Shown here: one piece after another, positions 50,709-60,607 of the stretch | Layout: the number at the start of each line of letters is the position of its first letter | Position numbering within the stretch: the first letter of the stretch is position 1 | NCBI GenBank assembly: GCA_014237145.1 | Contig: JAAXOC010000096.1 | Span: forward strand, 60,138-124,137 | Direction: 5' to 3' | Length of the DNA: 64,000 bases | Source: ANME-2 cluster archaeon | Lineage (GTDB): Archaea > Halobacteriota > Methanosarcinia > Methanosarcinales > Methanocomedenaceae | The notes under the pieces: generated by a model | What the model saw: only the letters and a program-made list of their open reading frames with translations | Database searches by the model: none | What the model was told of the DNA's origin: nothing | Translations under genes and position numbers: made by a program

Positions 50709-52619
50709 ATGACAAAGATATACCTGGGAAAAATGGTGCTGCACTGGTGCCCCCAATGCGATCTACCGGTACTGGAGCCCATATGTGCATGCGGCTCACC
50801 TGCTGGTAAGGTCAGGGTTACACCGCCCGGTGATATCAGGCCCACATTCCCCCATGATATTAACCTTATCAATGCTACTGCTATAACGCAGTTCGGCAGT
50901 CCCTTGATACCTGACGGGACTATCGCCATCATGAATAAAGTGCCATCGGACGACAGGATGGAAGAGATCATAGCCAGTGGAGTGCCCCTTGCCAATATCA
51001 GGTTCGATGTGGAGTCAGGTAAGTGGGTACTGCTGCCCAGGATGGAAGGGGCAGCCAGGATATTCACTAAAATGGAGGGGCGCAGCAACTGGGTGGTGAT
51101 CGACGAATCGGCAGTACCGTTCATAGAAAAAGGTGCCAGCACGCTGGCACCCGGCGTTATCGATGCCGACCCTGGGATCATCCCGGGCGCTGAGGTGATA
51201 GTGGTATCGCCTGATGGCATACCTGTGTCTGCCGGCAGGGCTAAGATGAACGGTAGGGAAATGGTGGAAGCCAAAAGGGGCGTGGCTGTCAAGACCAGGT
51301 GGAGCGGGATTGTTGAAACAGTTGCAGCACCCGTCCCCCATTCATGGGATGATGTAGTTACTGCTAATCTTAATATCCTAAAAGATTTTGAAGCTAAAGC
51401 CCATGCGTTTATCAGGAACGTGTCCCAATCCACAAACCGACCTGTAAGTGTATCATACTCGGGGGGCAAGGACAGCCTGGTCACCTTGCTGCTGGTAATG
51501 GACTGCCTGGATGGCTTCAATGTCTTGTTCGCTGATACCGGACTGGAGTTCCCAGAGACACTGGAGAATGTAAAAGAGGTTGGCAGGCATTACGGCCTGA
51601 CTGTGAAAACCTTTTATGCAGGGGACGTGTTCTGGGACTCAATCGATACTTTCGGACCACCCACGGTTGAGGCGAGATGGTGCTGCAAGACCTGTAAACT
51701 GGGCCCGATCTCCACGCTCATTGAAGAGAACTTCCCAGAAGGCTGCCTGACATTTATCGGTCAGCGCAAGTACGAAAGCGAGGGCCGGGCCAGGAGTGAT
51801 AAGATATGGAAGAATCCCTGGATAGGTAACCAGATAGCGGCCTCGCCGATCCAGAACTGGACTGCGCTGCATATCTGGCTGTACCTCTTCTGGAAAGGGG
51901 CGCCGTACAATCCGTTGTATGAACAGGGGTTCGACCGCATCGGCTGCTGGCTGTGTCCCTCGGGAAGCATGGCTGAGATGTCGCGTATTAAGGATATTCA
52001 TCCTGAAATGTGGGCCAGGTTCGAGGAGAAGCTGCACTCCCATGCAGAGAAGTTCGGCTACGGGAAGGGCTGGGTAGATTACGGGCTGTGGCGCTGGCAA
52101 AATCCTCCGAAAGTGCAGCGTAAAATGGCAGAGAGGCTGGGCATCAACCTGGTACCTGAAGGGTTCGGCGGGGAGATGGAGTTCTCAATGGTGTCTGGGT
52201 ACAGGCCATGTAAGGCTGGCGGGGTTTCGGCTGAGGGTAGTTTTGGTGTGCCCCTGAACCTTGAGGCAATCGAGGGTTCGGGTATGATGAGAGTGCTGGG
52301 TGAGGTGCATTCCATGGATGGTGTGATCACATCCAGCCAGGGTGAGGATAATGTGCAGGTGTTCGCATCTGGCACTGTGACTGCCAGGAGCGATACTGAT
52401 GCCAGAGCCAGGCGGTTGATGAGGGGGGCCGAATCTTCGATCCGGCGGGCGCTGGAGTGTACGGGCTGCGGGCTGTGTGTGGGTAAGTGCAAGGTGCGGG
52501 GTGTGAAGGTTAAGGATGGGTGGGCTATGGTGAATGAGAACTGTACGCATTGTGGGCTGTGTTTGAAAGCATGCCCGGTGGTGCGGTATTTGAATACCAA
52601 AGATCTATCGAATATATGA
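50709..52619 (+). CDS. PUA-domain + PAPS reductase-like PP-loop ATPase + 2x[4Fe-4S] ferredoxin fusion protein
   Basis: The 636-aa ORF has an N-terminal zinc ribbon (CPQCD...CACG) and a PUA-like region. The PP-loop is VSYSGGKDS. The C-terminus has CTGCGLCVGKC...CTHCGLCLKACP. Confidence 0.75.
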   Translation: MTKIYLGKMVLHWCPQCDLPVLEPICACGSPAGKVRVTPPGDIRPTFPHDINLINATAITQFGSPLIPDGTIAIMNKVPSDDRMEEIIASGVPLANIRFDVESGKWVLLPRMEGAARIFTKMEGRSNWVVIDESAVPFIEKGASTLAPGVIDADPGIIPGAEVIVVSPDGIPVSAGRAKMNGREMVEAKRGVAVKTRWSGIVETVAAPVPHSWDDVVTANLNILKDFEAKAHAFIRNVSQSTNRPVSVSYSGGKDSLVTLLLVMDCLDGFNVLFADTGLEFPETLENVKEVGRHYGLTVKTFYAGDVFWDSIDTFGPPTVEARWCCKTCKLGPISTLIEENFPEGCLTFIGQRKYESEGRARSDKIWKNPWIGNQIAASPIQNWTALHIWLYLFWKGAPYNPLYEQGFDRIGCWLCPSGSMAEMSRIKDIHPEMWARFEEKLHSHAEKFGYGKGWVDYGLWRWQNPPKVQRKMAERLGINLVPEGFGGEMEFSMVSGYRPCKAGGVSAEGSFGVPLNLEAIEGSGMMRVLGEVHSMDGVITSSQGEDNVQVFASGTVTARSDTDARARRLMRGAESSIRRALECTGCGLCVGKCKVRGVKVKDGWAMVNENCTHCGLCLKACPVVRYLNTKDLSNI

Positions 52620-52804
52620 TGAGTATACTTAACGTAGAATCGAATTTGGGTTAATTATACATGACACACATTAGACAGGTGCTGCCGGACTCCAATGAAT
52701 AGTGGAAGGGTATAAGTTTTTAGTGGATGACTATTTTGGGTAGCTATCCTAAAGTACTGAAAGTGACTGGAACGATTTTAAATTTTGATATTCACTTAAC
52801 ATAG

Positions 52805-53032
52805 TTCCAGGAGGAATCGAATGCCACGTTTTACTCTCTTAGACATAGTTTTGCCACATATCTACTGGAAAGTGGTACAGACATGCAGTATATCCAGGAG
52901 TTGCCTGAGCACAAAAGTTCAAAGATAACAGAAATATATACACATATCTGTACCAAGAATGTAGGTAAGTTTAAAAACCCATTGGATAGTTTACAGATAA
53001 AAGAAGGAGAATCACTTATTGACCCAGCTTGA
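52805..53032 (+). pseudogene. Tyrosine recombinase/integrase, C-terminal fragment only
   Basis: It reads FQEESNATFYSLRHSFATYLLESGTDMQYIQELPEHKSSKITEIYTHICTKNVGKFKNPLD, which covers the R-H-x-x-R...Y catalytic C-terminus. A TAG lies immediately upstream and there is no N-terminal part. It is AT-rich, unlike what follows. Confidence 0.75.
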
Positions 53033-53540
53033 ATACATCGAAGCTATTGAAAAGCGCCTCTGGGGTGTGGTGGACACAATGCGGGCTAACTCCAACTACG
53101 CCAGCAACGAGTACTTCCTACCCGTGATGGGGCTGGTGTTTCTCAGGCACGCCTACAGCTGCCATCTTGCGGTGAAGGGTGGTATCGAGGCTAACCTTCC
53201 CACCCGCGGCGTCAAGACGCGAGCGCTGACCAAGAAGGATTTCTCCGGGCAGGGCGCTATTTTCCTTCAACCCAGGGCGCAGTTCGACCATCTCGTGGCC
53301 CTGCCCGGCAGCGAAGACCGCTCCAAGGCGATCATTGAAGCAATGGAGTCTATAGAAGGCGACTACGACAACCTGCGTGGTGTCCTTCCCAAGAGCGAAT
53401 ATCAGGAACTGGATGACGATGTACTCGGCCAGCTCTTGCGGACGCTCAACCCCGACGAGCTGGCGAAATATAATGAGTCACTCACCCAAGCCCGCAACCT
53501 CCTCCTGCCGCGCTTGATGAATGGGGAGGTTGTCGTTTGA
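53019..53540 (+). pseudogene. hsdM: Type I R-M remnant: HsdM N-terminal domain fused in frame to an HsdS C-terminal tail
   Basis: The HsdM_N-like part is EKRLWGVVDTMRANSNYASNEYFLPVMGLVFLRHA...SIEGDYDNLRGVLPK. The HsdS-type ending is ARNLLLPRLMNGEVVV*. There is no methyltransferase catalytic domain. Confidence 0.7.
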
Positions 53541-53640
53541 GCTTAATTGTTTTCGTCAAACTCATTGCTTTGTGCGAATGGTTTACTGTAAAGCATAAAC
53601 GTACTGTAACCTCAACCAGATACTCTCAAGCCGCTGTCGG
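53537..53640 (+). pseudogene. Decayed 5' remnant of a second AlbA_2-type gene
   Basis: Track ORF 53537..53749 begins ...KLIALCEWFTVKHKRTVTSTRYS. The intact gene at 57784 has SNLIALGEGFTTEFKRTVTSSLGR. The TTGA overlap with the hsdS tail mirrors the ATGA at 57784. Confidence 0.45.
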
Positions 53641-53748
53641 TCTTGACGAGGGTTTGAGTGAACGGAGCGTTGGGTGCGTTAACATCTATGTAGCCATGTT
53701 GGTTTTTATGGCGACGATACGGGCAAGCATGCTTTTGGAGGCAGTCTG

Positions 53749-56700
53749 ATGCCAGCCTTTGTAACCAACGGACCCGATATCCCAGAGAGTCTATTGCGGG
53801 CACACGAAGATGGCCGTGTTGTATTTTTCTGCGGCGCTGGCATTTCATACCCGGCAGATCTGCCGGATTTTTGCGGTTTGATGGATCGGGTATATAGGGA
53901 GTTGGATACGACGTGGACGCAGTACCCAATCGAGAAGCAGGCTTATGATAATAAACAGTACGATGCGATGCTGGATCAGTTGGAACGCCGCTACCCCGGT
54001 CATCGCTTTAAGGTCAGAAAGGCGTTGGCAAACGTTCTCAAGCCCAAGTGGCGCAAAAAAGGCGCTACAACGACCCACCAGGCACTGCTGCAACTGGCTA
54101 TTGATCACAAGGGCAAGACCAGGCTAGTTACCACCAACTTTGACCGCATTTTCAAGTCCATAATAACACGGCATAAGCCTGAGATTCCGAGCTTTGATGC
54201 TCCTCTCCTGCCCATTCCAAAACCGACCCGTTGGCGTGGTGTGGTGCATCTGCACGGTTTATTACCTACTTCGGCCGACGAAACTGCGCTCAATCGCTTG
54301 GTTTTGACCAGTAGCGATTTTGGTCTGGCATACCTCACTGAGCGTTGGGCGGCTCGTTTTGTCAGCGAGTTGTTCCGAAATTACACGGTTTGCTTCGTCG
54401 GTTATGGCATCAACGACCCGGTATTGCGCTACATGATGGATGCGCTCGCCGCCGATGAGTTACTTGGTGAAACTCGACCTGAAGCCTATGCCTTCGCAAA
54501 CTTCCGCGATGGCGAACGGGACCAGGCGCAGATCGAATGGGAAACTAAAGGTGCCATTCCGCTGCTATACGAAGTGCCTACGGATACACAAAATCACTCA
54601 GCGCTTCATCTCACCCTCAAAGAGTGGGCTGACACGTATCGCGATGGTGTGAGTGGCAAGAAAATGATTATAACGAAGCATGCGAGTACGCCGCCGTTGA
54701 CATCGTCGCGGTCAGACTTTGCCGTCGGTCGCGTGCTGTGGGCATTGACAGACTGGCTGGCAGCCAAACACTTTGCCGACCTAAATCCCGTTCCCCCATT
54801 AGAATGGCTCGAACCGCTGACTAAAGCCCAGTTTAGTCATGACGACTTGGCGTGCTTCGGGGTGGTTCCCAAAAGCGAAAAAGATGAAAATCTGATTTTT
54901 AGCGTCATTAGCCGTCCAGCACCGTATACACATGCGCCCTTGATGTGCATTGTTGACATGGGTGCCCAGGTAAGCTATTGGGACGAACTCATGTTCCAAT
55001 TGGCACATTGGCTCACGCGGCATCTCGATGACCCTAAACTAATACTTTGGTTGTCCAATCAAGGCGGCCAGTTGCATAAGCGATTCGCATCTATGGTCCG
55101 GAGTCGAATTGAATACCTTGATAAGCTGGTACACGATGACAATCAGACTGAACTCGAACGTATCCGCGCTGCTGCTCCCAGAGCCATACCAAGCCGATTA
55201 ATGCGTATCCTCTGGAGGCTGCTGTTGTCCGGGTGTGTGAAGTCACCTCAAATCAATTTAGATCTCTACGATTGGTTACGCCGCTTTGAGCAGGACGGCC
55301 TCACGCCGACCTTGTGTATGGAACTACGTGAGTTTTTGAGGCCATATGTGATTCTTCGTGAACCATTCCGTTGGGACGAAGAAATAACCGACCTGCACGA
55401 GGCGAAGTCCATTAAAGATCTTGTAGAATGGGATATCGTACTGTCCAGCGATCATGTTCATTCCATGTTGCGCGATCAGGCGAACAAGCCGGGTTGGCAG
55501 GCGGCACTACCAGATTTGTTGCAGGACGTCACCGTTCTACTGCGTGATGCGCTCGATCTGATGCGGGAATTAAGCGGCGCAGAAGACAAGAGCGATTTGT
55601 CCTATCTCGATCAGCCTTCAATCAGCGAGCACGAACAGAACATAGGTTTTCCCGACTGGACGGCATTGATCGAACTCACACGCGATGCTTGGTTGGCTAC
55701 GGTGCAGACCAATCCAGCACAGGCACGGCATGCCGCAGAAGGCTGGTGGCAGGTGCCTTATCCGCTATTCAAACGGCTGGCCTTTTTTGCTGCGACACAG
55801 AGCGATGTAATTCCTCCTCCTCATGCGCTCAGCTGGCTGCTGGCCGATAATCACAAGTGGCTGTGGTCAATTATAACCAAGCGCGAAGCAATACGCCTGT
55901 TGGTGTCACTAACGCCAAAGTTGGATGCATTGGGGATAACTGAATTGGAGCAAGCCATTTTGGAGGGGCCACCGCATGAGATGTTTATGGATGACCTTGA
56001 TCCACAAGAGTGTGCACGCATCGTGGATCAAGATATCTGGTTGCGACTGGCAAAAGCGAGTGCTTCAGGGGCAGTACTCGGCCACGATGCCAGTACAAAA
56101 CTGGCTGATCTGACACTACAATATCCAGGTTGGAAGTTGGCTGAAGACGAAAGTGATGAGTTTCCGATTTGGATAAGCGAAGATGATAGGTGGCGCAATT
56201 TTGTCCCCACACCACGCCACCAAATCGAATTGATGGAGTGGCTCAAACAACCCGCCAGATCAGATCAGAGGCAGGAAGACGACTGGCTTCAGCGCTGTCG
56301 TGACGACTTTTCGACTACCTCTGGCGCCTTGTCTGCTTTGGCTCAGGATAAGGAGTGGCCCATCGAACGCTGGCGCGAAGCACTACAAGTTTGGGCAGAG
56401 GATAAATTGATCGAACACTCTTGGAGCATGGCGCAAGTAATTTCCAAAGCACCCGATGATGTAATTCAAGCACTTTCACATAGTCTCGGCTGGTGGCTGC
56501 AAGCACAAGCCAGAATCTTCAAGGGTCGTGAGGAGCTGTTTTTCGCTCTCATTCGTCGTATTCTGGAATTGGAACTCCAAAATGGGGTGCATAAGGATTA
56601 TGACCCTGTGTCTAGTGCAATCAACCATCCCGTCGGACTCGTGACGAAGGCGTTACTACACTGGTGGTATCAACAGAAGCCGAAAGACACAGAAGGTCTG

Positions 56701-57546
56701 AGAGACGAGGTCAAACCTCTATTCACTAAACTTTGCGATACGGGAGTTGAGAAGTTCCGCCACGGCCGCGTTTTGCTCGCAGCCCACGCGATTGCGCTGT
56801 TCCGAGTGGATGAGAAGTGGGTGAGAGAGTGTCTACTGCCCTTGTTCGACTGGCAACTATCTGAGGTTGAGGCACGTGCGGTCTGGGATGGCTTTTTGTG
56901 GTCACCTCGCCTCTACCTACCGCTGCAGTCAGCCATCAAACAGCCGTTGTTAGAAACAGCGACACACTATGAGGAACTCGGTAAGCACGCCGAGCAGTAT
57001 GCGGCATTTTTGACCTTTGCAGCCTTAGACCCGGGCGACACATTCACAACCAAAGAATTGGCGGAGGCGACGTGTAAATTACCTGTGGAGGGCTTGCAAA
57101 GTGCGGTGCAGGCAGTTATCCGTGCTCTTGATGGCGCTGGTGAACAACGTGGGGAATATTGGCGTAATCGTGTTCTTCCGTACTTTAATTTGGTTTGGCC
57201 CAAAACCATTGTTGTGATGACACCCACGATATCGGAGCTTTTCGGCCAGCTCTGCGTGGCTGCACAGGAAGCCTTTCCAGAGGCGTTGGAGAAGTTACAG
57301 CACTGGCTACAGCCAGTTGAACATCCATTTTATCTTATTCATCTCCTGAACGAAGCGAAATTGTGCAATCAATTTTCATCAGATGCTCTGGTGTTTCTGG
57401 ATACTGTTGTTGGTAATGATGCACAGTTGTTGCCACAAGAACTTAAGCAGTGCCTGGATGATATTGAAAAAGCCGACCAGACATTGGCCGAGGATGCGCG
57501 TTTTGTTCGGTTGAGTCAGGTTTTCGAAAGGCATGGCATTTCCTGA
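53749..57546 (+). CDS. SIR2-domain giant protein (defence-associated sirtuin / SIR2-DUF4020-like), 1265 aa
   Basis: ggagg precedes the ATG. The N-terminal motifs are VVFFCGAGISYPADLPDF, LVTTNFDRIF, VVHLHGLL, LTSSDFGLAY and CFVGYGINDPVLRYMMD. About 1000 aa of helical, W/L-rich C-terminal region follow. Confidence 0.8.
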   Translation: MPAFVTNGPDIPESLLRAHEDGRVVFFCGAGISYPADLPDFCGLMDRVYRELDTTWTQYPIEKQAYDNKQYDAMLDQLERRYPGHRFKVRKALANVLKPKWRKKGATTTHQALLQLAIDHKGKTRLVTTNFDRIFKSIITRHKPEIPSFDAPLLPIPKPTRWRGVVHLHGLLPTSADETALNRLVLTSSDFGLAYLTERWAARFVSELFRNYTVCFVGYGINDPVLRYMMDALAADELLGETRPEAYAFANFRDGERDQAQIEWETKGAIPLLYEVPTDTQNHSALHLTLKEWADTYRDGVSGKKMIITKHASTPPLTSSRSDFAVGRVLWALTDWLAAKHFADLNPVPPLEWLEPLTKAQFSHDDLACFGVVPKSEKDENLIFSVISRPAPYTHAPLMCIVDMGAQVSYWDELMFQLAHWLTRHLDDPKLILWLSNQGGQLHKRFASMVRSRIEYLDKLVHDDNQTELERIRAAAPRAIPSRLMRILWRLLLSGCVKSPQINLDLYDWLRRFEQDGLTPTLCMELREFLRPYVILREPFRWDEEITDLHEAKSIKDLVEWDIVLSSDHVHSMLRDQANKPGWQAALPDLLQDVTVLLRDALDLMRELSGAEDKSDLSYLDQPSISEHEQNIGFPDWTALIELTRDAWLATVQTNPAQARHAAEGWWQVPYPLFKRLAFFAATQSDVIPPPHALSWLLADNHKWLWSIITKREAIRLLVSLTPKLDALGITELEQAILEGPPHEMFMDDLDPQECARIVDQDIWLRLAKASASGAVLGHDASTKLADLTLQYPGWKLAEDESDEFPIWISEDDRWRNFVPTPRHQIELMEWLKQPARSDQRQEDDWLQRCRDDFSTTSGALSALAQDKEWPIERWREALQVWAEDKLIEHSWSMAQVISKAPDDVIQALSHSLGWWLQAQARIFKGREELFFALIRRILELELQNGVHKDYDPVSSAINHPVGLVTKALLHWWYQQKPKDTEGLRDEVKPLFTKLCDTGVEKFRHGRVLLAAHAIALFRVDEKWVRECLLPLFDWQLSEVEARAVWDGFLWSPRLYLPLQSAIKQPLLETATHYEELGKHAEQYAAFLTFAALDPGDTFTTKELAEATCKLPVEGLQSAVQAVIRALDGAGEQRGEYWRNRVLPYFNLVWPKTIVVMTPTISELFGQLCVAAQEAFPEALEKLQHWLQPVEHPFYLIHLLNEAKLCNQFSSDALVFLDTVVGNDAQLLPQELKQCLDDIEKADQTLAEDARFVRLSQVFERHGIS

Positions 57547-57628
57547 TGTAACGGGAGAAAGACAAAAGCATGATTGAGAAAATGTACGTTACTATGATTA
57601 TTAAGACGACACTGAAAAACAACGAATC

Positions 57629-57787
57629 ATGAGCACTAGCAATTACACCGAAGACACCCTCGTTCAGCAAACCATGGTCGAGTATCTGGATTCACAGCTC
57701 GGCTGGGAATCGGTCTATGCCTCCAACAACGAGGACTTCGGACAGGACCGCCTACCGCGCTTGATGAACGGGGTGGTGACAGTATGA
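57629..57787 (+). pseudogene. hsdR: Type I R-M remnant: HsdR N-terminus fused in frame to an HsdS C-terminal tail (52 codons)
   Basis: It reads MSTSNYTEDTLVQQTMVEYLDSQLGWESVYASNNEDFGQD + RLPRLMNGVVTV*. Its stop overlaps the next ATG (ATGA). Confidence 0.65.
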
Positions 57788-59190
57788 ACGAACACACGCT
57801 TTCCAACCTCATCGCCCTCGGCGAAGGCTTCACCACTGAGTTCAAACGTACGGTTACTTCCAGCCTCGGGCGGGAGATATGCGCTTTTGCCAATGCAACA
57901 GGTGGTATCATCCTGATTGGGGTGGATGATGATGGTGAGATTGTCGGGGTTGGCAAGCACAATAAACTTAAGTCTCAGGTCCAGTCCATCGCCCGTTCTG
58001 CCGAACCCCCCATCGCGGTTGATGTAGAGAACATTGGCGAAGTACTTTGCATCACTATACCTGAACAACACAGCAAGCCCTATTCCTTTAGCGGCAAGTT
58101 TTTCATTCGCGAAGGTGCGACCTCGCAGCAGATGGCCCGCAATGAAATCCGCGAGTTTTTCTTCAAGGAAGGGTTGATTCATTTTGATGAAACACCCTGT
58201 ACCAATTATGATCTGGAACGTGACCTGACCCCTGAGATCTGGAGCCGTTTTATTCAGCACGCCCGTCTTCCGGATGGGCTGGAGACTCGTCCTGCATTGG
58301 ATAACCTGCATCTGACCAAAGACAGCAAGATGACCCATGCCGGTGCCTGGCTGCTGTGTGATGACATCACCTGCTATACCTTGCAGGCGCATGTAACCTG
58401 TGCGATGTTTAGGGGAACGACCAAAACCTACATCCTAGACCGCAAGGATTTTGCTGGCGATCTCTATTCAATCTACGAAGACTGCATGGCCTACTTGCAG
58501 GCCAAGTTGAATACTGCTCTAATCCCTCATGCGAGAGGCCGGGACGAACGGCTGGAGTTGCCAGCAGATGCCCTCCGGGAAGCCCTGGTCAATGCCATTG
58601 CACACCGTGACTATCGCTCAACCGCCAATGTGCAGGTGTACGTCTTCTACGACCGTCTTGAGATTGTGACGCCGGGCGGCCTGCCCGCTGGGATGCGCGA
58701 GGAGGATTTGGGAGTGAAAAGTGTGCCGCGCAATCCATTGCTGTTTGGAATGTTCTATCGTATGGGGATGGTGGAACAGGTAGGCAGTGGCATCAAACGA
58801 ATCCGTGAGATGTGTCGCGATTATGGAGTGGCTGAGCCAGTGATTGAGGTCTCGGAGAACTGGGTGACAACCACGTTCAGGCGGCCGATCGAACAAGTTG
58901 AAGACCAGGTCACGGGTGAAGTCACGGGTGAAGTCACGGGTGAAGTCACAAGTGAAGTCAAGCAACTACTACATGTCCTCACCAGCGGCTCCATGATGAG
59001 AGCCGAACTGCAGGAAGCGCTCAATCTCAAGGGACAGACAAACTTCAGGGATCGTCATCTTACGCCGGCACTTGAAGTGGGCCTGATTGAGATGACCATT
59101 CCAGATAAGCCAAAGAGTCGCCTGCAGAAGTATCGACTGACCGAAAAAGGCAAGGCTTTACTTAAGGAGTTGGAAGGTGGATCGTCATGA
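57784..59190 (+). CDS. AlbA_2 (Schlafen-type) + HATPase_c_4-like + wHTH protein (COG2865 'RecG-like' putative DNA-binding regulator)
   Basis: The 468-aa ORF has EGFTTEFKRTV...ICAFANATGGIILIGVDDDGEIVGV (AlbA_2) and REALVNAIAHRDY...GSGIKRI (HATPase-like). The C-terminus is QKYRLTEKGKALL (wHTH). Confidence 0.8.
   Translation: MNEHTLSNLIALGEGFTTEFKRTVTSSLGREICAFANATGGIILIGVDDDGEIVGVGKHNKLKSQVQSIARSAEPPIAVDVENIGEVLCITIPEQHSKPYSFSGKFFIREGATSQQMARNEIREFFFKEGLIHFDETPCTNYDLERDLTPEIWSRFIQHARLPDGLETRPALDNLHLTKDSKMTHAGAWLLCDDITCYTLQAHVTCAMFRGTTKTYILDRKDFAGDLYSIYEDCMAYLQAKLNTALIPHARGRDERLELPADALREALVNAIAHRDYRSTANVQVYVFYDRLEIVTPGGLPAGMREEDLGVKSVPRNPLLFGMFYRMGMVEQVGSGIKRIREMCRDYGVAEPVIEVSENWVTTTFRRPIEQVEDQVTGEVTGEVTGEVTSEVKQLLHVLTSGSMMRAELQEALNLKGQTNFRDRHLTPALEVGLIEMTIPDKPKSRLQKYRLTEKGKALLKELEGGSS
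58909..58956 (+). repeat. 12-nt in-frame tandem repeat (4 copies) in the AlbA_2 gene linker
   Basis: gtcacgggtgaa occurs 3 times, then gtcacaagtgaa. They encode VTGE-VTGE-VTGE-VTSE. Confidence 0.9.
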
Positions 59191-59510
59191 ATCCCGTCCC
59201 CTACACCTAAGACACCCTTATCCAGCAGACCACCGCCGAATACCTGGAGCAGTAGCTCGGCTGGGACTCAGTCTACGCCTACAACAACGAGGACTTCAGA
59301 CCGGACAGCCTGCTGGGTCGTGCATCCGACCGTGAGGTAGTGCTGACACGCATCCTGCGTGAGAAGCTCATCGAACTGAACCCGCACCTGCCCGATAAGG
59401 CCTACGATGACGCAGTGCGCCAGATCACAGTCACCGACGCTGTGCGGGTGACCATTTGGGATTTCCTTTGGAGCGACAAAACGGGGTTGCCTGTGGAGAG
59501 TTACACATAG
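59187..59510 (+). pseudogene. hsdR: hsdR pseudogene: N-terminus with two in-frame nonsense codons joined to the extreme C-terminus
   Basis: It reads MNPVPYT*DTLIQQTTAEYLEQ*LGWDSVYAYNNEDFRPDSLLGRASDREVVLTRILREKLIELNPHLPDKAYDDAVRQI...VTIWDFLWSDKTGLPVESYT*. The stops are TAA 59208-59210 and TAG 59253-59255. The helicase/nuclease core is absent. Confidence 0.7.
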
Positions 59511-59653
59511 GATGATCTAAAAACAATATCTAATGAAGTATTTAGGCATGTTTACCGGGTATATCCATCGGTTCCATCGCCGTGTTATGCAGAAGCTGCA
59601 TGAAAAGATAAACGAAATATTTACAGAACCGCGCCCGCCTCAGTCAAACACTA

Positions 59654-59741
59654 CGATAGATAGCGCCTGGATGCTCTGTATGCGAGCTGCGGCCTCGGGC
59701 AGTGGTGGACATATTGGGGCACCTCTGCAGCTGTTGAAATA
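59654..59741 (+). repeat. Copy A of a roughly 90-nt direct repeat pair at the island's right edge
   Basis: It shares ...atagc.cctg.at...tgctct.tatgcg.gc.gcgg.ctc...gctgttgaaata with copy B. Confidence 0.6.
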
Positions 59742-60039
59742 ATCGAATAAACAGCAGAGGTTCGTAGAGCGTATTTACTTTTCTCTGAGCACTCGGCGGT
59801 TCATCTTAAACTGATTACAGCTCCTGTTAGTTTCTTCAATCATCCCACCGACAGCAACCAGGTTTTGCAATGTGCCAACCGCGTGCTAACCCATGATTGC
59901 TTCCCTCACAAGTTCAAATCCGTGTAAATCCGTATCCTAAAATATTGCCACCCCAGCCCCCATTTATTCACTACCTCGCCACCCTCTGCAAACATCTGCC
60001 TGCGCTGCCGTCAGCACTCACCCTGCCGCCCCTCCTGCT

Positions 60040-60132
60040 CGACCCCATAGCCTGCATCTCGTTGCTCTATATGCGGGCAGCGGTCTCTGGGGTTGGTTAA
60101 TGCTGCCGATAGCGGCCATGGCTGTTGAAATA
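60040..60132 (+). repeat. Copy B of the roughly 90-nt direct repeat pair
   Basis: See copy A. It has the same orientation, a 5-nt indel, a divergent middle and an identical 3' end (gctgttgaaata). Confidence 0.6.
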
Positions 60133-60146
60133 TATAATCTGTGTAA

Positions 60147-60353
60147 TGTGGTACAGATGAAGAACTTCAGGAAGCAAGGCAATTGATAAGAAAAATTCCA
60201 CAACATCCTTTAGTTAAATCTGATGTGAAAAGACCTGAGATCCTTCAGGATTTTGTTGCACTTGTTGAGGATGAGTTTAATAAAGTCCCCGAGACAGATA
60301 TTAGCAGGTGGCTGTCTAATTTTATTGACACAGATGCTAGATCGACGCCATAG
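60147..60353 (+). pseudogene. Start-less, protein-like open frame (possible C-terminal fragment of a disrupted host gene)
   Basis: It is open from a TAA at 60144-60146: CGTDEELQEARQLIRKIPQHPLVKSDVKRPEILQDFVALVEDEFNKVPETDISRWLSNFIDTDARSTP*. It is AT-rich like the host. I do not recognise the family. Confidence 0.25.
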
Positions 60354-60433
60354 TTGGTAGTGTTCAGAAAAATAAATGGCCTTTATAGTGGTAGTATTTA
60401 GTGAGATCTGGGACATGGAAAGATGATGTGAAT

Positions 60434-60607
60434 CCAACGAGGTCTAAGACCGTAGCGTGGTATCAAACGGAAACTATGGGAACTCGGGAGGGCCATTATG
60501 CTCTCCTTACAAGGGTAGGAGTTTGCAATATCAAGCCAATGAACGGTAAGACACGGTTTAATGTAATAAAAAATCTCCAGTTAGTTGCCCTAAATTTAAT
60601 GTTCAGC
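60434..60607 (+). pseudogene. Possible DDE transposase C-terminal remnant (IS5/IS1182-like ending)
   Basis: The 5' extension of the radical-SAM ORF reads ...RSKTVAWYQTE...GKTRFNVIKNLQLVALNLM. This loosely matches the R-S-x-V-E...G-x-x-K-V...A-x-N-L endings of such transposases. The call is weak and by eye only. Confidence 0.25.

What the first reader, a model, noticed from the sequence alone, without database searches (positions are those of the whole stretch)
53019..59510. Restriction-modification skeleton: three type I R-M genes reduced to in-frame stubs while the embedded cargo genes stay intact
Three remnants are visible.
- 53019-53540 encodes an HsdM N-terminal domain that jumps straight into an HsdS-type C-terminal tail (...ARNLLLPRLMNGEVVV*). 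The methyltransferase core and nearly all of HsdS are missing.
- 57629-57787 encodes an HsdR N-terminus (MSTSNYTEDTLVQQTMVEYLDSQLGWESVYASNNEDFG) fused in frame to a second HsdS tail (LPRLMNGVVTV*).
- 59187-59510 is a second HsdR N-terminus with two in-frame nonsense codons (TAA 59208, TAG 59253). It is joined to an HsdR extreme C-terminus (...VTIWDFLWSDKTGLPVESYT*), so roughly 900 codons are gone.

All three deletions keep the reading frame. They also keep the 4-nt stop/start overlaps with the next gene (TTGA at 53537, ATGA at 57784 and 59187).

The layout is what remains of two hsdM-hsdS-[cargo]-hsdR operons after the R-M enzymes were removed. The stubs may still supply promoters and translational coupling for the cargo genes. 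Such selective gutting is unusual and suggests the cargo acts independently of restriction.
Basis: partly seen in the sequence, partly recalled or inferred. Interest (0 to 1): 0.7.

Follow-up and report, generated by a model that had tools for sequence, protein, structure and literature searches.

The report
Gutted restriction operon that kept its defence cargo
In a methane-oxidising archaeon (ANME-2a), a horizontally acquired type I restriction-modification operon has lost all its enzyme genes except short end-pieces. The anti-virus genes that rode inside it (Dsr1 and an AlbA_2/Schlafen-like ATPase) remain, and sister lineages carry different cargo at the same slot.

Summary
All three stubs are hsd remnants at the stated coordinates. 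The exact 173-aa stub occurs in four independent assemblies, and 11 diverged 173-aa versions with the same junction exist.

- Stub 3 runs on to 59603, so TAG 59508 is a third premature stop and not the natural end.
- A fourth stub exists: the albA2 5' end at 53537-~53620.
- An integrase 3' fragment lies at 52790-53032.

Intact relatives show one multi-cargo operon, hsdM-hsdS-[Dsr1 or PDC-S06]-joint ORF-albA2-hsdR. Only two deletions are local. The middle stub (HsdR 1-41::HsdS tail) is a widespread joint ORF that already sits between stacked cargo modules in intact operons.

In Ca. Methanocomedens relatives the skeleton occupies one chromosomal site. Slot 1 holds Dsr1, either of two unrelated PDC-S06 genes, or nothing, and the exchange boundaries lie inside the stubs.

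- Stub 1 is the first cistron and is open in 12 of 12 lineages.
- Stub 3 has nothing downstream and is broken differently in 7 of 7 lineages.
- The HsdS tail encodes the Shine-Dalgarno sequence and the stop/start overlap for the next gene.

So the stubs are probably retained as an expression and recombination chassis. That part is inferred, not shown. I rate this a new variant of a known kind, of moderate interest.

The parts
52790..53032 (+). 3' fragment (about 75 codons) of a tyrosine-recombinase (integrase) gene, including RHSFAT...EIYTH. Its stop lies just inside the start of stub 1. An A/T-rich box (52968-52976) about 45 nt upstream of the stub 1 start is a candidate archaeal TATA box (inference).
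   Evidence: Pfam Phage_integrase E 1.4e-7, profile positions 134-168 of 172. Frame translation. Conserved 93-94% in sister lineages. Alignment.
53019..53540 (+). Stub 1, a 173-aa ORF. It joins HsdM residues 1-~148 (53019-53462) in frame to the last ~25 residues of HsdS (53463-53537). It is the first cistron of the skeleton. The tail encodes GGGGAGGT about 9 nt before the next start, plus the TTGA overlap.
   Evidence: It is open and exactly 173 aa in 12 cluster representatives of 81-100% identity, all with the same junction.
53537..53749 (+). orf70. Its first ~27 codons are a degenerate albA2 N-terminus (LIALCEWFTVKHKRTVTS against LIALGEGFTTEFKRTVTS). The origin of the rest is unknown. It overlaps stub 1 (TTGA) and Dsr1 (TGATG), so it bridges the chain of overlapping ORFs.
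   Evidence: alignment. Present and open in L007/L008 at 96% nucleotide identity. No family match.
53749..57546 (+). Dsr1, a defence-associated sirtuin of 1265 aa. It is the slot-1 cargo and is intact.
   Evidence: NCBIfam NF041818 1783 bits (cut-off 1400). PADLOC Dsr1 1619 bits. Pfam SIR2_2. A 55%-identical homologue sits between hsdS and albA2 in the intact operon L087.
57629..57787 (+). Stub 2, the joint ORF of 52 aa. It joins HsdR residues 1-41 in frame to the last 11 residues of HsdS, and its stop overlaps the albA2 start (ATGA). It is inherited rather than a local deletion.
   Evidence: 5-nt microhomology CCTGC at the junction. The same junction occurs in intact operons L018, L095, L097 and L099. 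At least 20 protein clusters of 49-52 aa carry it. It carries an internal TAA in L006/L092.
57784..59190 (+). albA2, a 468-aa protein with SLFN_AlbA_2, HATPase_c_4 and Fic-like_C (winged-helix) domains. It is the constant cargo and is intact here.
   Evidence: 80% identical to the albA2 of the near-intact operon L010. dN/dS 0.14-0.17 against sister lineages. Frameshifted in L007/L008.
59187..59603 (+). Stub 3, a mini-hsdR pseudogene. HsdR 1-83 (59187-59435) is joined in frame to HsdR 1026-1080 (59436-59600), and 942 codons are lost. It has three premature stops (59208, 59253, 59508). The natural stop is at 59601-59603.
   Evidence: The same junction occurs in L005, L007/8, L012, P0240, P0242 and P0247, with different disruptions in each.

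Best explanation
**What it is.** The locus is the eroded remnant of one horizontally acquired, integrase-associated, multi-cargo type I R-M operon: hsdM-hsdS-[slot 1 cargo]-joint ORF-albA2-hsdR. It sits at a fixed chromosomal site in ANME-2a archaea (Ca. Methanocomedens and relatives).

**How it arose.**
- Two lineage-specific deletions removed every catalytic R-M part. Both have junctions with short microhomology.
- The first runs from hsdM codon ~148 to hsdS codon ~388.
- The second removes hsdR codons 84-1025.
- The middle 'stub' is older. It is a junction scar, HsdR 1-41 fused to the HsdS tail. It arose when cargo modules from two operons were stacked, and it now travels between modules in many intact operons.

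**What survives.** The retained pieces are the gene ends that carry expression signals.
- The hsdM 5' end carries its Shine-Dalgarno sequence and the upstream promoter region.
- The HsdS tail codons ...MNGEV... spell the Shine-Dalgarno GGGGAGGT and end in the ATGA/TTGA stop-start overlap for the next gene.

**How it works now.**
- Stub 1 acts as a leader cistron. Translating it delivers ribosomes to the cargo by termination-reinitiation.
- The stubs are also nearly identical to the ends of intact hsd genes in the community. They therefore serve as homology arms through which slot 1 cargo is exchanged (Dsr1, two unrelated PDC-S06 genes, or empty).
- The cargo genes act on their own as anti-virus effectors.

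**Shown versus inferred.** The homology, the breakpoints, conservation across lineages, cargo polymorphism with boundaries inside the stubs, and differential ORF survival are shown. Promoter use, translational coupling, recombination as the exchange mechanism, and defence activity are inferred.
For: **Breakpoints and reference operons**
- Breakpoints are mapped on the near-intact operon L010, which has the same 4-nt overlaps hsdS/albA2 and albA2/hsdR.
- Intact operons have the same order and cargo. L087 is hsdS-Dsr1-albA2-hsdR. L018 is hsdM-hsdS-PDC-S06-52aa-albA2-hsdR.
- The joint ORF lies between stacked modules in L095, L097 and L099. Extra HsdR 5' stubs follow each module there, and HsdM-tail copies follow modules inserted between hsdM and hsdS.

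**Fixed site, variable cargo**
- Sister lineages are ~92% identical and syntenic, with four slot-1 alleles.
- Homology to the window breaks at 53530 (inside the HsdS tail) and resumes at 57644 (inside the HsdR N-terminus).
- The empty allele L094 has a single HsdS tail, where the two 30-nt repeats coincide.

**Differential ORF survival**
- Stub 1 is open in 12 of 12 clusters.
- Stub 3 is broken in 7 of 7 lineages, at different positions each.
- Nonsense changes number 0 of 106 in stub 1 against 6 of 71 in stub 3. Fisher p = 0.004, or 0.011 after weighting for codon content.

**Divergence profile**
- Divergence reaches the 4-fold-site level (0.15-0.17) only just 5' of the junctions.
- It stays at 0.03-0.08 in the tails, the 5' ends and the upstream region.

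**Signals and junctions**
- The Shine-Dalgarno sequence GGAGA before stub 1 is conserved with L010.
- The HsdS tails all contain GGGGAGGT before the next start.
- Junction microhomology is CCTGC at J2 and CG at J3.

**Independent case and literature**
- An independent in-frame HsdM(1-70)::HsdS-tail fusion lies directly upstream of albA2 in Halomonas salipaludis (L078).
- ATGA/TGATG overlaps mediate termination-reinitiation coupling in archaea (PMC6728339, PMC10666635).
Against: - Stub 2 has an internal stop in L006/L092. Its changes look neutral, 30 missense to 14 synonymous. Coupling through stub 2 is therefore not required everywhere.
- In the Dsr1 allele, stub 2 is separated from Dsr1 by 82 nt with no obvious Shine-Dalgarno sequence.
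- The absence of nonsense codons in stub 1 is only mildly unlikely on its own. P is 0.08 from the DNA of 5 lineages and 0.01-0.04 from the 12 proteins. The protein search could miss broken copies.
- Stub 1 protein evolves as fast as the stub 3 pseudogene, with dN 0.064-0.086 against 0.073-0.079.
- Both stubs show a synonymous excess. This probably reflects imported variation from functional hsd alleles. It blurs any selection test.
- No transcript, translation or phage-challenge data are available.
- The rest of the genome could not be checked for an intact hsd operon.
Confidence: 0.7

Rival explanations
1. First reader's model. Two complete hsdM-hsdS-cargo-hsdR operons lay in tandem at this locus. 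Three separate in-frame deletions removed the enzymes, and selection favoured keeping the frame in each case.
For: - HsdR N-terminal sequence occurs twice (57644-57753 and 59202-59311, 80% identical) and the HsdS tail occurs twice.
- The two HsdR copies are no closer to each other than to other operons. An origin from two operons at some time in the past is therefore likely.
Against: - The HsdR(1-41)::HsdS-tail fusion with the same junction exists inside intact single operons in other archaea (L018, L095, L097, L099). It also forms a widespread family of 49-52-aa proteins. It therefore predates the gutting and was not made here.
- Stub 3 keeps the frame but is a pseudogene everywhere.
- Remnants found at the DNA level elsewhere are mostly out of frame.
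Confidence: 0.1
2. Purely neutral wreckage. The stubs have no present role. They persist because the deletions are recent relative to the mutation rate and because small remnants are slow to disappear. Frame and overlaps are kept by chance. Cargo has its own signals.
For: - Stub 2 evolves neutrally and is broken in one lineage.
- Stub 3 decays.
- Stub 1 dN equals that of the pseudogene.
- The expected number of nonsense changes in stub 1 is only 2.6-4.7.
- The frame of internal deletions elsewhere fits chance.
- albA2 itself is frameshifted in L007/L008.
Against: - The contrast of 12/12 open for stub 1 against 0/7 open for stub 3.
- Low divergence of the tails, the 5' ends and the 400-nt upstream region relative to 4-fold sites.
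- The HsdS tail that is always kept, even when only 7 codons remain (L015), is exactly the part that contains the Shine-Dalgarno sequence and the overlap.
- PDC-S06 and albA2 alleles have no other ribosome-binding site than the one inside the tail.
Confidence: 0.2
3. Stub 1 encodes a functional small protein made of the HsdM N-terminal domain plus the HsdS C-terminal helix. It could act as a decoy or sensor for phage anti-restriction proteins that controls the cargo, as EcoprrI controls PrrC.
For: - The 173-aa length and the junction are conserved in 12 clusters.
- There is a synonymous excess, 53 synonymous to 53 missense against a neutral expectation of about 30 to 73.
- HsdM_N::HsdS-tail fusions recur (L078, P0116).
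- PrrC is silenced by its type I enzyme and is released by a phage peptide (PMC2610378).
Against: - The same synonymous excess is seen in the stub 3 pseudogene.
- Stub 1 dN is 2.5-3 times that of neighbouring genes.
- 72 of 172 columns vary among close relatives, including radical changes at positions conserved in functional HsdM.
- The amount of HsdM retained differs between independent fusions (70, 148 and ~155 residues).
- The cargo next to stub 1 varies between unrelated proteins.
Confidence: 0.05
4. Assembly artefact. Collapsed or chimeric assembly made the stubs, and full-length hsd genes exist in the real genome at this site.
For: The source is a metagenome-assembled genome. Repeated hsd ends could mislead an assembler.
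Against: - The same sequence is recovered at 100% identity in four independent assemblies.
- The same junctions occur in diverged lineages from other samples and assemblers: JGI, ENA, Logan and NCBI.
Confidence: 0.01

Closest known systems
PrrC / RloC and other 'restriction-linked' genes embedded in type I R-M operons (prrA-D of E. coli; PMC2610378, PMC3458546)
   Same: - A defence effector sits between hsdS and hsdR and is co-transcribed with the R-M genes.
- The alternative cargo in sister lineages is an AAA_13/ABC-ATPase protein (PADLOC PDC-S06) with weak PrrC similarity.
   Different: - PrrC depends on an intact R-M enzyme that silences it. Here the R-M enzyme is gone and the cargo (Dsr1, AlbA_2 protein) is of other families.
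- No anticodon-nuclease domain was detected.
TgvAB, a type IV restriction system embedded in the type I R-M cluster of Vibrio cholerae VPI-2, and Payne et al.'s 'embedded' defence candidates (10.1101/2024.04.04.588119)
   Same: - Independent defence genes are nested inside a type I operon.
- The embedded genes protect on their own when separated from the R-M genes.
   Different: - There the R-M system is intact and active.
- Neither stubs, nor joint ORFs, nor cargo polymorphism at stub boundaries is described.
DSR1 defence-associated sirtuin (10.1101/2021.12.14.472415)
   Same: The slot-1 cargo is a full-length member (NCBIfam equivalog above cut-off). The family is known as a single-gene NAD+-depleting anti-phage system.
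   Different: - Known examples are bacterial and were tested as stand-alone genes.
- This one is in an ANME-2a archaeon, expressed behind an hsdM/hsdS remnant, and 55% identical to one embedded in an intact bacterial type I operon (L087).
Defence hotspots with conserved flanks and swapping cargo (for example P2/P4 hotspots and core-genome defence hotspots). Also Staphylococcus aureus vSa-alpha/beta islands bounded by orphan hsdM/hsdS (PMC6805111).
   Same: - A fixed locus with conserved flanking sequence and alternative defence cargo between strains.
- hsd genes lacking a partner are associated with island cargo.
   Different: - Here the conserved flanks are not core genes or intact hsd genes. 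They are 50-170-codon remnants of the R-M genes themselves.
- The exchange boundaries lie inside those remnants.

Membership tests
Functional type I restriction-modification system | HsdM with N6-adenine methyltransferase catalytic core (N6_Mtase) | tested here: not met
   Only HsdM_N (residues 1-~148) is present. There is no N6_Mtase match. Alignment to L010 stops at HsdM ~148-158. No other hsdM in the 64-kb window. The rest of the genome was not searched.
Functional type I restriction-modification system | HsdS with two target-recognition domains (Methylase_S) | tested here: not met
   Only the last ~25 residues (stub 1) and the last 11 residues (stub 2) of HsdS remain.
Functional type I restriction-modification system | HsdR with nuclease and SF2 motor domains | tested here: not met
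   Only HsdR 1-42 (stub 2) and HsdR 1-83 plus 1026-1080 with three stops (stub 3) remain. ResIII/SWI2_SNF2 regions are absent.
Dsr1 (defence-associated sirtuin 1) | Full-length match to the curated family model with an N-terminal SIR2 domain | tested here: met
   NCBIfam NF041818 1783 bits against a cut-off of 1400, residues 4-1258. Pfam SIR2_2 E 8e-22. PADLOC Dsr1 1619 bits.
Dsr1 (defence-associated sirtuin 1) | NAD+ depletion and protection against virus infection | not testable with these tools
   Known for bacterial DSR1 (10.1101/2021.12.14.472415). There is no assay for the archaeal protein.
Type I R-M-embedded cargo (restriction-linked gene slot between hsdS and hsdR) | Cargo lies between hsdS and hsdR of one operon, in the same orientation | tested here: met
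   In the window the flanks are remnants. In intact relatives the same cargo occupies the same slot: L087 Dsr1, L018 PDC-S06, and L010/L013 albA2.
Type I R-M-embedded cargo (restriction-linked gene slot between hsdS and hsdR) | Cargo activity controlled by the R-M enzyme (PrrC type) | not testable with these tools
   The R-M enzyme is absent here. 46 of 80 albA2 loci have no hsd nearby, which argues for independence but is not a functional test.
Translationally coupled operon (termination-reinitiation) | Co-directed genes with -4 or -1 nt stop/start overlaps | tested here: met
   TTGA at 53537, TGATG at 53747-53751, ATGA at 57784 and ATGA at 59187. The same overlaps occur in L010, L018 and L097.
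Translationally coupled operon (termination-reinitiation) | Downstream translation depends on upstream translation | not testable with these tools
   Supported only indirectly, by stub 1 being open in 12/12 lineages against stub 3 in 0/7. Contradicted for stub 2 in L006.
Integrated mobile element with tyrosine recombinase | Intact integrase and flanking att repeats | tested here: inconclusive
   Only ~75 C-terminal codons of the integrase remain. A 22-nt imperfect direct repeat (19/22) brackets the island, but the right copy is native operon flank in L010. There is no tRNA gene nearby.

The most novel reading that the evidence does not exclude
The short head-to-tail ORFs are not just scars. 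These are HsdM_N::HsdS-tail, HsdR(1-41)::HsdS-tail, and the HsdM-tail copies after modules inserted between hsdM and hsdS. They could be selected 'adaptor cistrons' of a plug-and-play system.
- Each carries the ribosome-binding site and the stop/start overlap for the next gene.
- Each is near-identical to the ends of hsd genes across phyla.
- Defence modules can therefore be stacked, swapped and kept expressed by ordinary homologous recombination.
- When the R-M enzyme is lost, the adaptors persist as a minimal expression and exchange chassis. That would be an integron-like cassette platform without a dedicated recombinase.
Probability: 0.3. Interest if true: 0.6.

Novelty: new variant of a known kind. 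Interest (0 to 1): 0.4.

Why it matters
Defence genes nested in type I R-M operons are known, and R-M decay is common. What this locus adds is a natural series.
- Intact multi-cargo operons in relatives.
- The same operon stripped to its gene ends at one fixed site in an uncultured, environmentally important archaeal group (ANME-2a).
- Four alternative cargo states whose exchange boundaries lie inside the remnants.

The series gives a concrete, testable picture of three things.
- How defence cargo outlives its carrier.
- Which few dozen nucleotides of the carrier matter for that: the Shine-Dalgarno sequence plus the overlap in the HsdS tail, and the leader cistron.
- How conserved gene ends can act as homology arms for cassette exchange across domains.

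It also warns annotators that 50-170-aa 'HsdM N-terminal domain proteins' and 'hypothetical' 52-aa ORFs near defence genes are junction remnants of this kind.

Tried and rejected
- **Assembly artefact.** Rejected, because identical and diverged copies occur in many independent assemblies.
- **Private recent deletion.** Rejected, because the junctions are shared by lineages ~8% diverged.
- **Pairwise dN/dS as proof of selection on stub 1 (0.17-0.32).** Rejected, because the stub 3 pseudogene gives 0.12-0.22.
- **Sorting variants by presence in functional hsd alleles, to separate imported from in-situ changes.** The test is biased, because synonymous sites are saturated among the 13 reference alleles. 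I did not use it.
- **'Deletion allele swept by recombination'.** The divergence profile does not show the low divergence on both sides of each junction that this model predicts.
- **Cluster of ~244-aa HsdM hits on Mb-scale contigs.** These are frameshifts at various sites that end at one shared out-of-frame stop. There is nothing special about them. The protein search also returned only proteins of 303 aa or less, so full-length HsdM was not listed.
- **Rfam on 52300-60500.** No match.
- **Joint-ORF junction pattern in IMG/VR.** No match.
- **Stub 1 DNA in plasmids.** Only one distant hsdM.
- **Sigma-70 promoter scan.** Not used, because the host is an archaeon.
- **PDB sequence search.** Nothing close for Dsr1. 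For AlbA2 it found only domain-level matches: the Fic C-terminal domain (4rgl) and 3lmm.
- **Open 138-aa mini-HsdR with this junction.** None found. Only broken pieces turned up.

Full report
**1. What is in the sequence**

ORF listing and direct reading confirm the three remnants and the overlaps.
- Stub 1 (53019-53540, 173 aa) matches Pfam HsdM_N (E 4.7e-10) and PADLOC MTase_I over residues 3-153 (E 1.2e-45). Its last 27 residues match the extreme C-terminus of PADLOC type I specificity-subunit models (E 1.3e-5).
- The cargo genes are a full-length Dsr1 and a protein with three domains. Dsr1 (53749-57546) scores 1783 bits against NCBIfam NF041818, cut-off 1400. The three-domain protein (57784-59190) carries SLFN_AlbA_2, HATPase_c_4 and Fic-like_C.
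ORF 53537-53749 starts with a degenerate copy of the albA2 N-terminus, so 'HsdS tail + albA2 start' is a direct repeat (53505-53612 against 57752-57860). Upstream of stub 1 lie the last ~75 codons of a tyrosine recombinase (Pfam Phage_integrase E 1.4e-7).
- The window holds no other hsd homologue.

**2. Not an artefact, and not private**

The window is contig JAAXOD010000028.1 of GCA_014237495.1. The same sequence is present at 100% identity in three Logan assemblies.

A protein search with stub 1 returned 11 further cluster representatives. All are exactly 173 aa, 81-88% identical, and share the junction NPDE[LM]|AKYNESLTQARDLLLPRLMNGEVxV. Their contigs are ~92% identical to the window and syntenic with it. 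In each, the stub follows the same cation-efflux and PUA/PAPS-reductase genes (L005-L009 and L092-L094). The albA2 scan of species-representative genomes names the closest relative as Candidatus Methanocomedens (ANME-2a, Methanosarcinales).

**3. Breakpoints**

A near-intact archaeal operon, L010, reads hsdM (frameshifted)-2 small ORFs-hsdS-albA2-hsdR. It has the same 4-nt overlaps at hsdS/albA2 and albA2/hsdR. Against it:
- Stub 1 equals HsdM 1-~148 plus HsdS 392-411.
- Stub 2 equals HsdR 1-42 joined to the HsdS tail, and it continues colinearly into albA2.
- Stub 3 equals HsdR 1-83 plus HsdR 1026-1080, an in-frame loss of 942 codons.

The stub 3 frame continues to the natural stop at 59601-59603. 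TAG 59508 is therefore a third premature stop.

Junction microhomology is 5 nt (CCTGC) at the hsdR|hsdS-tail joint and 2 nt (CG) at the internal hsdR joint. At the hsdM|hsdS joint it is unresolved, at most 3 nt, because the donor hsdS is unknown.

**4. One operon, not two, and the middle stub is inherited**

The albA2 scan (80 loci) and three context look-ups show the standing architecture.
- hsdM-hsdS-albA2-hsdR occurs in many archaea and bacteria.
- L087 (a Thermovirgaceae bacterium) has hsdS-Dsr1 (55% identical)-albA2-hsdR, all intact.
- L018 (an ANME-2 archaeon) has hsdM-hsdS-PDC-S06-[52-aa ORF MMSSECIEDTLVQQ...NNEDFGLDSLPRLMNGEVAV]-albA2-hsdR. The 52-aa ORF has the same junction as stub 2 and ATGA overlaps on both sides.
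- The same 50-52-aa ORF separates cargo modules in the intact operons L095, L097 and L099. The modules include AAA_13, CTD6-MC2-AAA_23, GmrSD, GmrSD_N/AlbA_2, and a 264-aa protein with a DEAD helicase.
- In those operons further HsdR 5' stubs follow each module. Modules inserted between hsdM and hsdS end with copies of the HsdM C-terminal tail.

A protein search with stub 2 found at least 20 clusters of this fusion. It also found other classes:
- HsdR 1-42::MNGEVTV.
- HsdR 1-66::LPRLMNGELSI.
- HsdR_N::HsdM tail.
- HsdR_N::HsdR C-terminus.

Junction scars are therefore a general trait of this horizontally mobile operon family. Only two deletions are specific to the Methanocomedens lineage.

**5. 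Cargo polymorphism at the stubs**

At the same chromosomal site, slot 1 holds one of four states.
- Dsr1, in the window and L007/L008.
- An 858-aa PDC-S06 protein in L005/L093, 81% identical to the L018 cargo.
- An unrelated 766-aa PDC-S06 protein in L006/L092.
- Nothing, in L094, where stub 1 abuts albA2 through a single HsdS tail.

Homology between alleles breaks at 53530, inside the HsdS tail, and resumes at 57644, inside the HsdR N-terminus. This is what exchange by homologous recombination within the conserved gene ends would give. The first 99 nt of hsdR are 83-95% identical between any two operons examined, from archaea to Lentisphaerales.

**6. Are the stubs under selection?**

*Pairwise dN/dS.* The values look constrained for stub 1 (0.17-0.32). 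The stub 3 pseudogene gives 0.12-0.22, so this measure is not informative here.

*Minimal-event counts.*

| Remnant | Synonymous | Missense | Nonsense |
|---|---|---|---|
| Stub 1 | 53 | 53 | 0 |
| Stub 2 | 14 | 30 | 2 in the raw count; one is verified (TAA in L006/L092) and the other may be an N-terminal alignment artefact |
| Stub 3 | 38 | 27 | 6 |

Neutral expectation is ~28% synonymous and 2.4-4.7% nonsense. The synonymous excess in stub 1 and stub 3 probably reflects variation imported from functional hsd alleles by the same recombination that swaps cargo.

*Reading-frame survival.* This is the informative contrast.
- Stub 1 is open in 12 of 12 clusters.
- The shared stub 3 junction is broken in all 7 lineages seen, at different positions in each. 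Its ancestor was therefore open.
- Nonsense changes are 0 of 106 in stub 1 against 6 of 71 in stub 3. Fisher p = 0.004, or 0.011 after weighting for codon content.
- Taken alone, the lack of stops in stub 1 is only mildly unlikely (P 0.01-0.08).

*Stub 2.* It evolves neutrally and carries a TAA in L006/L092.

*Divergence.* It reaches the 4-fold-site level (0.15-0.17) only in the 100-200 nt 5' of each junction. It stays at 0.03-0.08 in the HsdS tails, the 5' ends and the 400-nt upstream region.

**7. Mechanism proposed**

The HsdS tail codons ...ATG AAY GGG GAG GTN... contain GGGGAGGT about 9 nt before the next start codon and end in ATGA/TTGA. Even the shortest retained tail (MNGEVTV in L015) keeps exactly this element.
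- Stub 1 keeps hsdM's own Shine-Dalgarno sequence (GGAGA), which is conserved with L010.
- Stub 1 is always the first cistron. Its stop overlaps orf70 and then Dsr1 in the window, PDC-S06 in L005/L006, or albA2 in L094.
- Overlaps of this kind couple translation by termination-reinitiation in archaea (PMC6728339, PMC10666635).

I therefore read stub 1 as a leader cistron kept open for cargo expression. I read the HsdS tails as the ribosome-binding sites of the cargo. I read all the stubs as homology arms. Stub 3 has nothing downstream and is free to decay. These functional steps are inferred.

Independent support comes from Halomonas salipaludis (L078). There an unrelated in-frame HsdM(1-70)::HsdS-tail fusion lies directly upstream of albA2.

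Frame retention is not a general rule. Of four internal-deletion remnants found at the DNA level in other genomes, only one is in frame.

**8. Comparison with what is known**

Defence genes nested in type I operons are established. Examples are PrrC and RloC (PMC2610378, PMC3458546), TgvAB and the 'embedded' candidates of Payne et al. (10.1101/2024.04.04.588119). DSR1 is a stand-alone NAD+-depleting effector (10.1101/2021.12.14.472415). The independence of the cargo from restriction is therefore not new. Here, 46 of 80 albA2 loci have no hsd gene within 10 kb.

My literature searches found no description of the following.
- The conserved skeleton of gene ends.
- The joint ORFs between stacked modules.
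- Cargo exchange bounded inside those remnants.

The locus fails every defining feature of a functional type I system. It works as a two-slot defence island built on an R-M chassis.

**9. Limits**
- There are no expression data.
- The rest of the genome was not searched for an intact hsd operon.
- The protein database returns only called ORFs, so counts of in-frame fusions from it are biased.
- Lineages share ancestry and recombine, so the P values are rough.
- albA2 is frameshifted in L007/L008. The whole island is therefore eroding in at least one lineage.

**Verdict**

This is a new variant of a known kind, of moderate interest (0.4).

Noticed in passing
window 58909-58960 (inside albA2); L095 845-2224(-); L011 7957-9348(-): A 12-nt in-frame tandem repeat GTCACGGGTGAA x4.3 (VTGE repeats) lies in the linker before the C-terminal winged-helix domain. 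Its copy number differs between lineages (a 12-nt gap against L005). Distant AlbA_2-like paralogues carry other 4-residue repeats (VGEK x3, VDGL x4) at the same position.
   Followed up: partly
window 52921-52942 and 59604-59625: A 22-nt imperfect direct repeat (19/22) brackets the island. One copy lies inside the integrase fragment (codons KITEIYT). The other lies immediately after the natural hsdR stop. It is conserved in all Methanocomedens lineages. The right copy is also native 3' flank of the operon in L010, so whether it is an att remnant or chance is unresolved.
   Followed up: partly
L047 13052-16726(-), L028 5668-9258(-), L087 1312-5097: Dsr1 homologues lie next to albA2 in genomes where no hsd genes are nearby (Caldilineaceae, Nitrospinota), as well as inside the intact operon L087. 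This hints at a Dsr1-AlbA_2 association that does not depend on R-M.
   Followed up: no
L095 446-2474(-), L011 7265-9598(-): A second degraded unit lies back to back with the intact multi-cargo operon and next to uvrA. It comprises an 85-aa ORF, a divergent AlbA_2-like gene (33-36% identical), half an HsdS or a 51-aa remnant of it, and a 96-aa HsdR C-terminal piece.
   Followed up: partly
window 59187-59603 and homologues in L005, L007, L012: Stub 3 has more nonsense changes than neutral expectation (6 against 2.3 among 71 minimal events). Mini-HsdR may be selected against, or this may be chance.
   Followed up: partly
window 59630-59699 and 60063-60138: Both stretches match one region of L005 (13420-13537). 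This indicates a small duplication or insertion of about 430 nt at the right border of the island. Gene content to the right differs between the window and L005.
   Followed up: no
L007 9388-10781, L008 8271-9664: albA2 is split into 294-aa and 182-aa ORFs by a 13-nt deletion in this sister lineage, so the constant cargo is itself decaying there.
   Followed up: yes
proteins P0234, P0237, P0241, P0246, P0249, P0271, P0272, P0289, P0308, P0211: Many independent in-frame 'mini-HsdR' ORFs (64-209 aa, N-terminus joined to the C-terminal 30-80 residues, each with different breakpoints) exist in metagenomes. The protein database lists only ORFs, so their frequency relative to out-of-frame remnants is unknown.
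   Followed up: no
proteins P0021, P0027, P0028, P0035, P0042, P0050, P0052, P0103: A cluster of HsdM fragments of 243-251 aa, some on Mb-scale contigs. They are frameshifts at various sites that all end at the same out-of-frame stop (...AWPR*). This is likely long-read homopolymer error or ordinary pseudogenes, with no biological signal.
   Followed up: yes
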